Origin: an uncultured archaeon
GTDB lineage: Archaea; Iainarchaeota; Iainarchaeia; Iainarchaeales; 1-14-0-10-31-34
Reading direction: 5' to 3'
Length of the DNA stretch: 64,000 nt
Assembly: GCA_964442255.1 (NCBI GenBank)
Contig: CAYTYC010000003.1
Span: 1-64,000 of the forward strand
The position numbers were made by a program. Shown here one piece after another: positions 45,001 through 48,000 of this stretch (positions within the stretch are counted from its first letter, which is position 1; the number at the start of each line of letters is the position of its first letter).

Positions 45001-48000
45001 TCAAATCCGCCTATTTTGGTTGAAGTGTCAACCTCGTGGAAAAAAATCCCTTGCCCTTTAAGCCGGGGAATTATCTGCAGGTCTTCAAGATTGGGGCACA
45101 CTTTTTCCGCGCCAAACTGGGCCGTGCCAAAGGGCTCCGGAAAAATGGTTTTGCCTTCCTTCGCCTTTTTGCCTATTTCGCAAATCCCGCACATTATGCA
45201 TGTTGAACATATTCCGCTTTGGGTTGCATGATCAGGAAATGCAAGCCTTGTGCGGGAGCAAATGTCCTCATTTGAATGCCTTCTGAAGCCCATTGTGCTG
45301 TGGGAACGGTACTTTTCTTCAGCCATATAACGGAATAACAGCGTTAAAAATAAAAAGGAAAAACAAACAGCCCTGTTTTCGGAAAAAAGGGAAAATAAAA
45401 AAACTTTGCGTCAGGAATATTTGGGAAAATGCTTTACAAGAAAGCGGATTTCAGGCAGCTGCTGGGGCAGTTCAGGCTGGCAAATCCCGGGGCGGAGGAA
45501 AAGGAGTTGGTTAAGGCGGAGAAGATGATAAGGAAAAGCCTTATGGAAAGGGAAAGGCGGGACGGAGAAACCGCTTACCAGCATTCCCTGAACACCGCAT
45601 CGCTTGCCGCCCAAATAGGGTTTGACCCTGAAACAATACTTTCTGCACTGCTTCACAACGCCCTGGACCACGGGGAAATTGAAGGCCGGGAAATCGCCTC
45701 AAAATTCAGCCCGGAAATAGCTGCGCTGGTTGAAGAGGTGACAAAAACCAACCAAATTATTTCAAGGAACCGGGAAAATGTTTCCCCGGGAACGTTAAGC
45801 AAGGTTGTTTTAAGCGCGTCCAGGGACATCCGCGCATTGCTTATTCTCCTGTGCGACAAGGTGGAAAACATGCGGTCGCTTGAGGGGCTTTCCGGGGAAG
45901 AACAAGTGAAAAAGGCTTCGCTTGTGTTAAGCCTTTTTGTCCCCATAAGCCACAAGCTGGGGCTAAATGAAATAAAGTGGGAGCTCCAGGATTTGGCGAT
46001 GAAGGTTTTGAATCCTGAAGCATACTTTGAGTTAAAGGAAATGCTCGGGAAAAAAAGGGAGGACCGGGAAAAATGGCTTGCGGAGCTGATAAACGAAATC
46101 AGGGGAATGCTGGAGAAAAAAAAAATCAAGGCAACAATTTACGGGAGAATAAAAAATTTTTACGGAACCCACCAAAAGATGCTGAAAAAAAACAAGCCCA
46201 TTGAAGAGATAAATGACTTGACTGCAGTGAGAATAATCTGCGACACGGAAAAAGACTGCTACTCTGTTCTGGGGGCCCTAAACCAGCACTACACTCCTTT
46301 AAAGGGCGGGTTTGACGACTATATCGTCCGCCCAAAACCCAACGGCTACCGCTCAATCCACTCAGACTTCCGGAAAAAAAACGGGGACGTGTTTGAGGCG
46401 CAGATAAGGACCTGGAAAATGCATGCCGAAGCGGAAGGGGGCGCTGCCGCGCACTGGGCATACAAGGAATACGAAAAGGACAAGGACTTCGACAAAAAGC
46501 TCAGCTGGGCGAAACAGCTGGTCGAATGGGGGAGAAGCTCATTGGAATCAAAGGAATTCCTGAATTCAATCAAACTTGATTTCGGCAGGAAAAAAATCTT
46601 TGTTTTCACCCCAAAGGGAGAGGTTGTGGAGCTTGAGGAATTTTCCACTCCCGTGGATTTTGCTTACTCAATACACAGCGAAATCGGCAACAGGGCACTG
46701 AAAGCGAAAGTGAACGGAATGCTTGTTTCCCTGGACGCCGTGCTGAAAGACGGCGACACCGTTGAAATAATTACATCACAAAAGCAGTCTCCCAGGCGGA
46801 GCTGGCTGCATTTCGTGAAAACAAGCAAGGCAAGGCAAAAGATAAAGTCAAGCCTTGAATTCAGGGGAATAAAAAGAAAAATAAAGGAAAAACTGCCCTC
46901 CACGAAAAGGCAGATAAAAAAAAGGAGGCAGGAATCCATTAAGCTAAGCAAGTGCTGCAACCCTGTCCCGGGGGACGAAATAATCGCATATCACACGACA
47001 AAAAGAAAAATAACAGTGCACAAGAAGGGCTGCCAGAACGTGAAAAAAATCGCCATTAAAAACAGGTTTTTTGAGCTTGACTGGGGGATAGTCGGCAAAA
47101 AGGATTTCAGGGTAGCGGTAAAAGTCAAAGCCCGGGACAGGCCCAGCCTTCTCACCGATTTGCTGAAAGCCATTTCCAAGGGAAACGCCGGGCTTGTTTC
47201 CACGAACGCGAAAGTTGAAAACAATGTTGCGATGTGCGAATTTCTTGTGGAAATAAAGGACCAGCTGCAGCTTGAGTTGCTGCTGAAAAGCCTGGGAAAG
47301 GTAAAAGGCACAATGGAAGTCAAAAAAGCGTAAAAACCCGTTTGCTAACTGTCCTTTATAAAAGGGCCAACGACCGCTGTTTTAGGGCGTGATATGGCTC
47401 TTTTCCGGTTGTTTCCCTGTGGCAAGTAAAAACAAAAGGTTTAAATCCTTGAACTGCGATTTATTGTGGGGAAAAATAAAATGGACAGGGTTAAGACAGG
47501 GATAGCCGGTTTGGACAACCTGATGGAAGGCGGTTTCCCTAAGGGAAGGACTATTTTGGTCAGCGGAGCCTGCGGGACAGGCAAAACCATTTTTTCAATG
47601 CAGTACGTCTACAACGGCGCGGTAAAATACAATGAGCCCGGGGTTTACGTTACTTTGGATGAACGGCCTGACCTCATAAGGCAGGATGTAATGAACTTTG
47701 GCTGGGACGTCAAAAAGCTTGAGGCAAAAAATCAGGTGAACATCATTGACGGAAGCGTTGCAAGGCTCGGCTTTCCCTCCGAAGAAGAATTTGCCATGCC
47801 TGTTACAGGATTTGACTTGGACAAGCTCCTTTTGGAGGTAATGCGGGTCTCCAAAAGAATTGGGGCAAAACGGGTTGTGATTGACTCAATTCCCGCGCTT
47901 GGGTTCAACTTTGAGGACGAAAACGAGGTCAGGAAAGCGGTGCTGAAGCTCAGCTATATGCTAATGAAAAGCGGGGTTACCGCGGTCCTCACCTCCGAGA

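What a model noticed while it worked through the whole genome (the two positions that open the first line are those of the whole stretch)
45429..47333. A pair of long RelA/SpoT-type enzymes in an archaeon, split into a synthetase-only and a hydrolase-only paralogue
The genome encodes two full-length long RSH proteins with the bacterial domain order hydrolase(HD)-synthetase-TGS-ACT: g00258 (C3:45429-47333, 634 aa) and g00958 (C17:13221-14918, 565 aa), 30% identical. In g00258 the synthetase motifs are intact (DLTAVRI, YRSIH, EAQIRT) but the hydrolase His-Asp motif HDxxED reads HNALDH; in g00958 the hydrolase motif is intact (HDVLED) but the synthetase has lost the DxxGxR motif and its catalytic Glu (EAQIRT -> KIYIRS). 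So one should only make and the other only break (p)ppGpp, a RelA/SpoT-like division of labour that arose independently of the one in Proteobacteria. The same split holds in relatives, so it is old in Iainarchaeales. Long RSHs were held to [...]
Evidence so far: Pfam rows HD_4, RelA_SpoT, TGS, ACT_4 on both genes; motifs. Six-frame search in 24 relatives: 20 have the g00258 type; 13 (all 8 of the family) give two matches, one of each type. Alignment of the 30 best loci (21 of type 1, 9 of type 2; this genome's two included): type 1, HDxxED 0 of 21, ExQIR[TS] 18 of 21 (others: EIQIRD, EIQVIE, one masked); type 2, HD[VT]xED 9 of 9, Glu replaced by Lys 9 of 9, DxxGxR 0 of 9. RelA_SpoT family in at least 152 of 195 genomes of the order and 946 of 10117 archaeal genomes (relatives.tsv, call 38). 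Best non-archaeal hits 35-37% identical (Clostridia, Patescibacteria; call 38). Literature: Atkinson et al. 2011 (PMC3153485, passages read, call 118) found only [...]
(Added by a program. Inside this text positions count along the whole contig: contig position 1 is position 1 of the stretch shown here. "Call 12" and the like, gene names such as g00115 and contig names such as C1 are that model's own, and its searches are not shown. The text may have been shortened before it was handed on; [...] marks where a part breaks off. The agent that wrote the report below was given it as the finding of a first reader that could run no searches.)

Follow-up and report, generated by a model that had tools for sequence, protein, structure and literature searches.

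The report
Archaeal split RelA/SpoT-like enzyme pair
This small archaeon carries two bacterial-type alarmone enzymes, one that by its sequence can only make and one that can only destroy (p)ppGpp, a split like the RelA/SpoT pair of E. coli that arose separately.

Summary
Window 45429-47333 (+) encodes a 634-aa long RSH ("T1": pseudo-HD, SYNTH, TGS, Zn-finger, ACT). A 565-aa paralogue ("T2") lies on contig C17, 30% identical.

T1-type genes lack the hydrolase HDxxED motif in 0 of 53 assessable relatives but keep every synthetase motif. T2-type genes keep HDxxED in 30 of 30 and lack the catalytic Glu in 30 of 30 (Lys in 28).

New here:
- T2 has also lost the tRNA-CCA-sensing His (0/30) and the whole Zn-finger domain (0/30); T1 keeps both (50/50).
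- T1 is followed by a KaiC-like ATPase gene in 27 of 28 loci. T2 lies beside ArgRS in 23 of 29.
- About 63 genomes of the order carry T1 with no second HD_4 hydrolase.

In trees, T1, T2 and two bifunctional-looking metagenomic proteins form one group (UFBoot 99 / SH-aLRT 98), apart from bacterial Rel, RelA and SpoT. AU tests reject T1+RelA and T2+SpoT.

The novelty is smaller than claimed. RelA/SpoT in 69% of Diapherotrites, bacterial in origin, is in print (Li 2021), and full hS/Hs splits are known in Moraxellaceae. Activities are inferred from motifs only. Verdict: a new variant of a known kind.

The parts
45429..47333 (+). T1: long RSH gene, 634 aa, predicted (p)ppGpp synthetase-only [hS]
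   Evidence: ORF. Pfam domains. TIGR00691 scores 549 bits, above its cut-off. 38-40% best-segment identity to Chloroflexota Rel.
45528..45965 (+). Pseudo-hydrolase (HD_4) domain, residues 34-179; the HDxxED motif reads HNALDH
   Evidence: Aligned to B. subtilis Rel 6yxa, where HDVVED stands against HNALDH. HDxxED is absent in 0 of 53 T1-type genes. Mean pairwise identity is only 0.30, against 0.51 for SYNTH.
46143..46475 (+). Synthetase (RelA_SpoT) domain, residues 239-349; RxK, DxxAxR, GFDD, YRSIH, EAQIRT and AHWAYKE all intact
   Evidence: ExQIRT is present in 30 of 30 T1 rows.
46596..46775 (+). TGS domain, residues 390-449, with the conserved His (residue 416) that in bacterial Rel/RelA stacks on the tRNA CCA end
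   Evidence: His is kept in 50 of 50 T1 rows. Its role is taken from Takada et al., PMC7797070, passages.
46953..47033 (+). Zn-finger (ZFD/CC/RIS) motif, CCNPVPGD...H...C, residues about 509-535
   Evidence: C509, C510, H531 and C535 are invariant in alignment A3. The motif is present in 50 of 50 T1 rows and absent in 30 of 30 T2 rows.
47100..47324 (+). ACT/RRM domain, residues 558-632
   Evidence: Pfam ACT_4, 48.7 bits.
47466..48224 (+). KaiC-like single-domain ATPase gene directly downstream of T1 (its likely true start is the ATG at 47481); a conserved neighbour whose functional link is not shown
   Evidence: Pfam KaiC 2.4e-74. NCBIfam KaiC-type models all score below their cut-offs. It sits on the same strand directly after T1 in 27 of 28 related loci.

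Best explanation
The gene at 45429-47333 (T1) is a bacterial-type long RSH that now works as a synthetase only.

T1. Its N-terminal HD domain is a non-catalytic pseudo-domain. Its SYNTH domain should transfer pyrophosphate from ATP to GDP or GTP to make (p)ppGpp. It keeps the sensor parts (TGS with the CCA-stacking His, Zn-finger, ACT/RRM) that in bacteria couple synthesis to deacylated tRNA on stalled ribosomes.

T2. The paralogue on contig C17 is the opposite. It has an intact Mn-dependent HD hydrolase site, a dead pseudo-synthetase kept as scaffold, no Zn-finger or helical region and no CCA-sensing His. It should therefore degrade (p)ppGpp off the ribosome, perhaps tuned through its small-molecule-type ACT domain.

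Origin. Both descend from one bifunctional Rel-like gene taken from Bacteria. That gene was duplicated and subfunctionalised inside this archaeal lineage, independently of RelA/SpoT of Beta- and Gammaproteobacteria.

Shown: gene structure, motif states, their conservation, synteny, and the tree grouping.
Inferred: both enzyme activities, the substrate, the ribosome/tRNA sensing in an archaeal cell, and the direction of the transfer.
For: Domains.

Residue-by-residue alignment to B. subtilis Rel (6yxa) and a mycobacterial Rel (8fr8). In T1, HD becomes HN and ED becomes DH, with all synthetase motifs intact. In T2 the hydrolase motifs are intact (HDVLED, LSDTLHN). EVQIRT becomes KIYIRS, AVRI becomes IMII, and AHWAYKE is lost.

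Tallies:
- T1 type: HDxxED in 0 of 29, 0 of 20 and 0 of 4. ExQIRT in 30 of 30.
- T2 type: HDxxED in 30 of 30; Glu replaced by Lys in 28, Asp in 1 and Arg in 1 of 30; the Arg of DxxAxR in 0 of 30.
- Sensor parts: TGS His in 50/50 T1 and 0/30 T2; ZFD in 50/50 T1 and 0/30 T2.

Reciprocal relaxation: mean pairwise identity HD 0.30 against SYNTH 0.51 in T1, and HD 0.49 against SYNTH 0.43 in T2.

Literature (passages read):
- Absence of HDXXED defines monofunctional Rel proteins (PMC2666561, abstract and opening text).
- H420E/H432E abolish activation by deacylated tRNA, and deleting ZFD and RRM raises hydrolysis and lowers synthesis (PMC7797070).
- A pseudo-SYNTH domain is kept as a regulatory domain in the hydrolase-only SpoT of A. 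baumannii (PMC9974481).

Origin:
- The set {10 T1, 14 T2, P0023, P0029} is one side of a branch against 34 other long RSHs. Support is SH-aLRT 98 under LG+C20 and UFBoot 99 / SH-aLRT 98 under LG+G4.
- RelA and SpoT lie on the other side. AU tests reject T1+RelA (p=0.00012) and T2+SpoT (p=0.0048).
- The nearest named bacterial Rels (Chloroflexota, Armatimonadota, Patescibacteria) have an intact HDxxED and are the only long RSH in their genomes.

Not contamination: conserved archaeal synteny in 27 of 28 loci, and T1 is present in one- to three-contig genomes. Archaeal marker genes lie in the window.
Against: - No activity, product or expression datum exists. No RNA run was listed (see Tried and rejected).
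- The own T1 keeps the first His, the His of HN, the Asp of the LxD(K/R)xxN stretch and the Asn. Residual hydrolysis cannot be excluded for this one protein from sequence alone.
- 63 genomes of the order have only one HD_4 match (my count), and all 24 single-copy genes examined are T1 type. The synthetase is therefore viable without T2, so T2 is not its obligate antidote and something else may remove the product there.
- The order of branching among T1, T2 and P0023/P0029 is unresolved; T1+T2 alone gets support 13.
- Tree rows were picked by me. The named bacterial rows came from a search pattern (FDDYI..PK) that is biased to one motif. The UFBoot run had not settled (correlation 0.964). The AU groups were named after the first tree had been seen.
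- Whether a bacterial-type sensor can read an archaeal ribosome is unknown.
Confidence: 0.7

Rival explanations
1. Two separate transfers. T1 and T2 entered the lineage from different bacterial donors, one already RelA-like and one already SpoT-like or a short Rel, and are not the products of an in-lineage duplication.
For: - T1 and T2 are each closer to bacterial Rel than to each other. T1 is 38-40% identical to Anaerolineae Rel and T2 37-38%, against 30% between T1 and T2.
- T2's short architecture without a Zn-finger resembles the 557-606-aa Rels of Patescibacteria.
- T2 is missing from many families of the order.
- Analogous Hs forms exist in bacteria: L203 sits on a contig with IF3, L20 and Pol III delta.
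Against: - T1 and T2 fall on one side of a branch with support 98 and 99/98.
- The Patescibacteria-type short Rels form their own group (support 100) on the other side.
- All named near bacterial Rels are bifunctional by motif.
- Asymmetric decay of different domains explains the low T1-T2 identity: the bifunctional-looking P0029 is 37% identical to T1 and 40% to T2.
Confidence: 0.15
2. T1 is still bifunctional, or the pair acts on another substrate. Either the degenerate HD domain of T1 keeps some hydrolase activity, or T1 and T2 make and break a different nucleotide such as (pp)pApp rather than (p)ppGpp.
For: - The own T1 keeps several metal-site residues (His, HN, the Asp of LCDKVEN and the Asn).
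- T1-only genomes lack any other HD_4 hydrolase, so they need some way to remove the product.
- (p)ppGpp has not been found in archaea (PMC8646023, passage).
Against: - The HD site varies freely among T1 orthologues, with readings such as LLFET--K, LLRKPLKE and HDTYYK. Domain identity there is only 0.30. This is the pattern of a non-catalytic domain.
- The guanine-side motif PKxNxYxSxH and the synthetase motifs are those of (p)ppGpp-making long RSHs in the alignments to solved Rel proteins.
- The whole protein passes the RelA/SpoT subfamily model.
Confidence: 0.1
3. Relic genes. The two genes are decaying leftovers of a transferred bacterial gene with no signalling role in the archaeon.
For: - Each has lost one active site.
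- One T1 orthologue (G017) has an in-frame TGA.
- Some T2 matches contain stop codons (G151, G152, G066).
Against: - Intact ORFs are kept in most genomes of a whole order: 153 of 196.
- The remaining active site is strictly conserved in each type.
- Identity is high in SYNTH and TGS of T1 (0.51 and 0.57) and in HD of T2 (0.49).
- Synteny is conserved.
Confidence: 0.05

Closest known systems
RelA of Beta-/Gammaproteobacteria (E. coli RelA; PDB 5iqr, 5kps), type [hS]
   Same: A long RSH with a pseudo-HD domain lacking HDxxED, an intact synthetase, a xFDD (EXDD-like) motif, and TGS His, ZFD and ACT/RRM kept.
   Different: - It is not an orthologue. RelA lies on the other side of the tree, and a T1+RelA clade is rejected.
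- The NCBIfam RelA equivalog scores 364 bits against a cut-off of 728.
- T1 is about 100 aa shorter (634 against 744), with a short helical region.
- The host is an archaeon.
Hydrolase-only SpoT[Hs] of Moraxellaceae (A. baumannii SpoT, PDB 7qpr; Tamman et al. 2022, PMC9974481, passages read)
   Same: An intact HD domain, a dead pseudo-SYNTH kept as a domain, and pairing in the same genome with a synthetase-only long RSH.
   Different: - T2 lacks the helical and ZFD domains that SpoT of A. baumannii uses in its compact state.
- T2 matches 7qpr only at 1.2e-44.
- It is not an orthologue of SpoT.
- The catalytic Glu is replaced by Lys.
Bifunctional Rel of Firmicutes, Actinobacteria and Chloroflexota (B. 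subtilis Rel 6yxa; mycobacterial Rel 8fr8)
   Same: These are the best solved matches: T1 at 5.6e-115 and 5.1e-118, T2 at 1.4e-91 and 9.8e-85. The domain order is the same. They represent the likely ancestral state.
   Different: Rel has both active sites in one protein, whereas here each paralogue keeps one.
RelA/SpoT genes reported in DPANN archaea (Li et al. 2021, mSystems, PMC8407392; passage read)
   Same: This is the same gene family in the same phylum: 69.0% of Diapherotrites, predicted to have come from Bacteria.
   Different: The passage read reports presence and transfer only. It says nothing of two paralogue types, motif loss, domain loss or synteny. Its Fig. S34 and its tables on figshare were not seen.
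   Same: Another independent partition of the make and break functions among long RSH paralogues.
   Different: They are eukaryotic, act in the plastid and have different accessory domains (EF-hand). No test was made here.

Membership tests
Long RSH (RelA/SpoT homologue superfamily, multi-domain class) | N-terminal HD fold followed by a RelA_SpoT synthetase fold | tested here: met
   T1: HD_4 89.3 bits and RelA_SpoT 118.8 bits. T2: HD_4 125.3 bits and RelA_SpoT 75.5 bits.
Long RSH (RelA/SpoT homologue superfamily, multi-domain class) | C-terminal regulatory region TGS - helical - ZFD/CC - ACT/RRM | tested here: met
   This holds for T1: TGS, the CCxPxPGD...H...C motif and ACT_4 are present. 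The helical region is short, and PF19296 was not reported for T1 at E<=0.01. T2 does NOT meet it: TGS 389-447 runs into ACT 489-559 and ZFD is absent in 30 of 30.
Long RSH (RelA/SpoT homologue superfamily, multi-domain class) | Score above the curated cut-off of NCBIfam TIGR00691 spoT_relA (499.2 bits) | tested here: met
   T1 scores 549 bits. T2 scores 437.4 bits, below the cut-off, so T2 is a truncated and divergent member.
RelA (monofunctional synthetase [hS]) as a functional class | HDxxED absent, synthetase motifs present | tested here: met
   The own T1 reads HNALDH. HDxxED is found in 0 of 53 T1-type genes and ExQIRT in 30 of 30. Activity itself was not tested.
RelA (monofunctional synthetase [hS]) as a functional class | EXDD charge-reversal motif in place of RXKD (Sajish 2009, PMC2666561, abstract) | tested here: inconclusive
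   The own T1 reads GFDD. Other T1 genes read xFDD, KFTD, KFED, DFKD and similar. Bacterial Rels with an intact HDxxED also carry EFDD, so the motif does not discriminate.
RelA of Proteobacteria (orthologous group; NCBIfam NF008124) | Orthology: equivalog score at or above 728 bits and placement in the RelA clade | tested here: not met
   The score is 364 bits. RelA forms its own group (100/99) on the other side of the tree, and the AU test rejects T1+RelA at p=0.00012.
SpoT of Proteobacteria (orthologous group; NCBIfam NF008303) | Orthology: equivalog score at or above 947 bits and placement in the SpoT clade | tested here: not met
   T2 scores 316.8 bits. The AU test rejects T2+SpoT at p=0.0048.
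Hydrolase-only long RSH [Hs] as a functional class | Intact HD metal and catalytic residues (H, HD, ED, D...N) with synthetase catalytic residues lost | tested here: met
   For T2, HDxxED is present in 30/30 and LxDxxHN in 30/30. The catalytic Glu is present in 0/30, the Arg of DxxAxR in 0/30, and AHWxYK is lost. Activity was not tested.
Stringent response (ribosome- and tRNA-triggered alarmone synthesis) | [quoted passage not shown] | not testable with these tools
   Only the sensor residues can be read: TGS His and ZFD are kept in 50 of 50 T1 rows. Binding to archaeal ribosomes is unknown.

The most novel reading that the evidence does not exclude
A whole order of small free-living DPANN archaea runs a true (p)ppGpp alarmone circuit rebuilt from one bacterial gene. 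It has two parts. One is a ribosome- and tRNA-sensing synthetase (T1) that is co-transcribed with, and perhaps controlled by, a KaiC-like ATPase. The other is a sensor-stripped hydrolase (T2) encoded behind arginyl-tRNA synthetase.

This would put a stringent response in Archaea. A bacterial sensor would be reading an archaeal ribosome, and there would be archaea-specific inputs. Many lineages would keep the synthetase alone and clear the alarmone by an unknown route.
Probability: 0.3. Interest if true: 0.8.

Novelty: new variant of a known kind. Interest (0 to 1): 0.55.

Why it matters
(p)ppGpp signalling is treated as a trait of bacteria and plastids. [quoted passage not shown] A 2026 paper still lists it as "found in Bacteria and plants" (PMC13725321).

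Here the genes are not a stray transfer. They are kept across most of an archaeal order and have been reshaped into a make-only and a break-only enzyme, with conserved neighbours. This gives three things:
1. A third or fourth independent case of RSH subfunctionalisation, useful for asking which residues and domains must go or stay. Here the hydrolase sheds the Zn-finger and the tRNA-sensing His altogether.
2. Concrete, clonable candidates to test whether an archaeon makes an alarmone and whether a bacterial-type stringent factor can read an archaeal ribosome.
3. A puzzle: dozens of genomes have a hydrolase-dead synthetase and no recognisable hydrolase.

Tried and rejected
Tools that were closed or gave nothing usable:
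- The look-up of sequencing runs: no RNA holder listed. There were two DNA holders from one microbial-mat study, which may be the source sample.

Searches that had to be redone or were biased:
- The search for related loci with the mixed T1+T2 alignment A1 found no conserved stretch. It was redone with the five-sequence T1 alignment A2, whose patterns (FDDYI..PK, TTKRKI.VH) bias the bacterial hits towards FDD-type Rels and RelA.

Trees:
- A 100-row tree under LG+C20 did not finish in two calls and was dropped for a 60-row subset. The subset kept 10 of 50 T1, 8 of 30 T2, 6 plus 9 plus 16 of the 150 representatives, and 11 of the bacterial loci, all chosen by me.

Identity of P0023 and P0029:
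- The cluster look-up gave no names.
- No close match exists in the 215 genomes of the phylum; the best is 41%.
- The contig of P0023 is 3.3 kb with uninformative neighbours.
- Their organisms remain unknown.

Motif idea tested and weakened:
- I tested EXDD against RXKD as a marker of monofunctionality. Bifunctional-looking Chloroflexota, Armatimonadota, Gemmatimonadota and Patescibacteria Rels also carry xFDD, so it does not discriminate.

Literature:
- Jimmy et al. 2020 (PMC7229694): the main text has no occurrence of "archaea". Datasets S1 and S2, the tables of all RSHs and their taxonomy, could not be read because they were too large or timed out. Archaeal long RSHs may be listed there.
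- Searches for prior description of the split found only Li 2021, which concerns presence: "archaea/long RSH/ppGpp", [quoted passage not shown], "DPANN/ppGpp", "archaea/RelA SpoT/metagenome-assembled/alarmone" (0 papers), and "GTP pyrophosphokinase/DPANN...".

Rejected idea:
- Contamination of the MAG by bacterial DNA was rejected on synteny and archaeal markers.
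Full report
**1. What is in the sequence**

The ORF 45429..47333 (+) is real, starts with ATG and encodes 634 aa. Pfam finds HD_4 (34-179), RelA_SpoT (239-349), TGS (390-449) and ACT_4 (558-632). NCBIfam's RelA/SpoT subfamily model TIGR00691 scores 549 bits, above its cut-off of 499.2. The equivalogs for E. coli-type SpoT (380.5 against 947) and RelA (364 against 728) are far below theirs.

The assembly (G000, 1.28 Mb, 51 contigs, 93.8% complete) has exactly two matches: this gene and one on contig C17, 30% identical. The second ORF has 565 aa. Its domains are HD_4 33-182, RelA_SpoT 243-344 (only 75.5 bits), TGS 389-447 and an ACT domain at 489-559. It scores 437.4 bits on TIGR00691, below the cut-off. 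I call the two genes T1 (in the window) and T2.

The window is plainly archaeal. It holds PcrB, an RPA-like OB-fold protein, class V FBPase, RadA, TFIIE-alpha and class I LysRS.

**2. Active sites**

Aligned to B. subtilis Rel (6yxa) and a mycobacterial Rel (8fr8), the two proteins show opposite losses:
- T1 reads HNALDH where Rel has HDVVED, and keeps every synthetase motif: GRxK, DLxAVR, PKPNGYRSIH, EAQIRT and AAHWAYKE.
- T2 keeps HDVLED and LSDTLHN. It reads KIYIRS for EVQIRT, IMII for AVRI and LALLSRE for AAHWAYKE.

According to Sajish et al. 2009, monofunctional Rel proteins lack hydrolysis because the HDXXED motif is absent (PMC2666561, opening text).

**3. Relatives**

T1 matches 153 of 196 genomes of the order at E<=1e-10. 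I extracted the genes from 30 T1 loci and 30 T2 loci, each set including this genome's own gene. Those were the 30 best-scoring places of each search.

| Feature | T1 | T2 |
|---|---|---|
| HDxxED | 0 of 29 assessable (one N-terminus is cut off by an in-frame TGA) | 30 of 30 |
| HD dipeptide alone | 12 of 29 | n/a |
| LxDxxHN | n/a | 30 of 30 |
| ExQIRT / catalytic Glu | ExQIRT in 30 of 30 | Glu in 0 of 30 (Lys 28, Asp 1, Arg 1) |
| Arg of DxxAxR | n/a | 0 of 30 |

One T1 gene reads HDVLDE, but it has lost the Asp of the LADRLHN stretch.

Further genes were checked:
- Twenty genes from genomes with a single copy (families f3, f6, f7, f11, f12, f14, f15, f24, f25, f31) are all T1 type. HDxxED is found in 0 of 20 and ExQIR[TSD] in 19 of 20; the odd one reads EIQVIE.
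- Four divergent genes of families f2 and f8 are also hydrolase-dead and synthetase-intact.

So 0 of 53 T1-type genes have the hydrolase motif.

Conservation is reciprocal (48 T1 and 30 T2 rows):

| Mean pairwise identity | HD | SYNTH |
|---|---|---|
| T1 | 0.30 | 0.51 |
| T2 | 0.49 | 0.43 |

**4.

(a) The sensor parts have been sorted as well.
- The TGS histidine stacks on the CCA end of A-site tRNA, and changing it (H420E/H432E) abolishes activation by deacylated tRNA (Takada et al., PMC7797070, passages). It is kept in 50 of 50 T1 and 0 of 30 T2.
- The Zn-finger (CC/RIS) domain is present in 50 of 50 T1 and absent in 30 of 30 T2.
- In B. subtilis Rel, deleting RRM and ZFD raises hydrolysis and lowers synthesis (same paper). 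T2's architecture therefore fits a hydrolase that works off the ribosome.
- T2's ACT domain matches the small-molecule-binding kind best (ACT_AHAS_ss). Regulation of a Rel hydrolase by amino acids through ACT is something I recall from the literature and did not read here.

(b) Both genes have conserved neighbours.
- A KaiC-like ATPase gene (window 47466-48224; Pfam KaiC 2.4e-74) follows T1 on the same strand in 27 of 28 related loci; the 28th locus ends at its contig's end.
- TIM lies upstream of T1 in 18 of 29 loci and class I LysRS beyond KaiC in 15 of 29. These loci reach only about 1.5 kb each side, so the counts are lower bounds.
- T2 lies next to ArgRS in 23 of 29 loci.
- Among 10 T1-only genomes fetched with about 3 kb of flank, the KaiC-like gene is adjacent in 2, lies 1.4-2.2 kb away in 4 (all f14), and is not in the stretch in 4.

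(c) The pair is not universal.
- Family PF13328 (HD_4) has two or more matches in 75 of 196 genomes and one match in 63 (my count of the table).
- My count of distinct T2-type places is 73, plus a few fragments.
- Whole families (f14, with 35 of 38 genomes matching; f12; f15; f24; f25) have T1 only, with no other HD_4 hydrolase. These include genomes in one to three contigs that are 86-99% complete.
- How these cells would remove the alarmone is unexplained.

**5. Origin**

A pattern search of one genome per species returned, besides two archaeal records, bacterial long RSHs. The search was biased by its pattern, FDDYI..PK. The bacterial hits came from Chloroflexota (38-40% best-segment identity), Patescibacteria, Armatimonadota, Gemmatimonadota and Myxococcota, with many beta- and gammaproteobacterial RelA.
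- The non-proteobacterial hits have an intact HDxxED and LADRLHNMRT.
- They are the only long RSH in the eight non-proteobacterial, non-myxobacterial genomes searched, of ten in all.

A search of 1.84 billion representatives with T2 gave 26,604 hits. By motif, the best 150 are about 46 hydrolase-intact/synthetase-altered proteins, most of them T2-like, and 99 bifunctional-looking ones.

Trees:
- With 85 rows, T1 (support 92), T2 (100) and the bacteria (96) form three groups.
- With 60 rows that include unbiased representatives, the set {10 T1, 14 T2, P0023, P0029} is one side of a branch against 34 others. Support is SH-aLRT 98 under LG+C20 and UFBoot 99 / SH-aLRT 98 under LG+G4. The bootstrap had not fully settled.
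- RelA (100/99), SpoT (99/86) and the short Patescibacteria-type Rels (100) lie on the other side.
- AU tests reject T1+RelA (p=0.00012) and T2+SpoT (p=0.0048). I named both groups after the first tree had been seen.

P0023 (640 aa) and P0029 (642 aa) are metagenomic proteins of unknown organism. They have both active sites and a Zn-finger. P0029 is 37% identical to this genome's T1 and 40% to its T2, more than T1 and T2 are to each other. That is what an unsplit relative would look like. The branching order among T1, T2 and these two proteins is unresolved.

With the root among Bacteria, which is an assumption, the simplest reading has four steps: one transfer of a bifunctional gene of about 640 aa, a duplication, reciprocal loss, and later several losses of T2. 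The tree needs at least 4 changes between paired and single T1.

**6. Comparison with what is known**
- Atkinson et al. 2011 state that archaea lack long RSHs (PMC3153485, passages).
- Li et al. 2021 already report RelA/SpoT in 69.0% of Diapherotrites, 41.7% of Woesearchaeota, 21.3% of Pacearchaeota and 19.0% of Nanoarchaeota, predicted to come from Bacteria (PMC8407392, passage). Their Fig. S34 was not seen.
- A complete split into a synthetase-only and a hydrolase-only long RSH is known in Moraxellaceae, where the pseudo-SYNTH acts as a regulatory domain (Tamman et al. 2022, PMC9974481, passages). It is also known in plants (recalled).
- I found no paper that describes the split, the domain loss or the synteny in archaea. 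The large supplementary tables of Jimmy et al. 2020 could not be read and may list such proteins.

**7. Verdict**

It is best filed as an independent archaeal variant of the known RelA[hS]/SpoT[Hs] theme. Its own traits are a hydrolase without Zn-finger and tRNA-sensing His, a KaiC-like neighbour of the synthetase, and many synthetase-only genomes. Activities, product and ribosome coupling are all inferred.

Noticed in passing
window 47466-48224 (+), and loci L004-L031: A KaiC-like single-domain ATPase gene directly follows the T1 gene on the same strand in 27 of 28 related loci. It is much better conserved than T1 (61-78% against 40-46% identity). This may be an operon or a regulatory partner.
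   Followed up: partly
L002 3039-4397 (-) = G000 contig C17, and loci L033-L061: Arginyl-tRNA synthetase lies next to the T2 gene in 23 of 29 related loci. In this genome it is upstream on the same strand with a gap of about 110 bp. The C-terminal part of AlaRS lies on the other side in 7 of 29.
   Followed up: partly
window 49843-55488 and 5914-8051: Guanine and purine nucleotide genes lie close to T1: GMP synthase (49843-51384), SAICAR synthetase, adenylosuccinate lyase and adenylosuccinate synthetase. Further away is IMP dehydrogenase (5914-7368), followed by a NUDIX hydrolase (7536-8051). The NUDIX hydrolase is a conceivable alternative alarmone hydrolase.
   Followed up: no
order-wide: families f14, f12, f15, f24, f25 and part of f11: Many genomes carry only the hydrolase-dead T1 and have no second HD_4 match. 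A synthetase without a recognisable hydrolase goes against the rule reported for bacteria.
   Followed up: partly
G017:C36:11051-12874 (L003): The T1 orthologue of a sister genus has one in-frame TGA. Some T2 matches (G151, G152, G066, G176) also contain stop codons. These may be pseudogenes, assembly errors or recoding; none was examined.
   Followed up: no
P0023 (L201 512-2434) and P0029: Two metagenomic long RSHs of about 640 aa have both active sites and a Zn-finger, and they group with T1 and T2 rather than with bacterial Rel. Their organisms are unknown. They may represent the unsplit form.
   Followed up: partly
L202 6893-8836 and L203 6923-8383 (metagenome contigs): An archaeal contig (it carries ribosomal protein S8e) has another hydrolase-dead, synthetase-intact 651-aa RSH. 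A bacterial contig (IF3, L20, Pol III delta) carries a 502-aa hydrolase-intact RSH whose catalytic Glu is replaced by Gln and which has no Zn-finger. Similar one-sided forms therefore recur elsewhere.
   Followed up: partly
L084-L112, L141, L155 (Chloroflexota and others): Bacterial Rels with an intact HDxxED carry the EFDD motif that the literature ties to monofunctional RelA. The EXDD/RXKD rule is therefore not strict outside the organisms first studied.
   Followed up: partly
window 60001-63133: A low-GC stretch (0.386 against about 0.47-0.50 elsewhere) holds ORFs without Pfam matches and lies next to a phage-integrase-family gene (62270-63133, -). It may be an integrated element.
   Followed up: no
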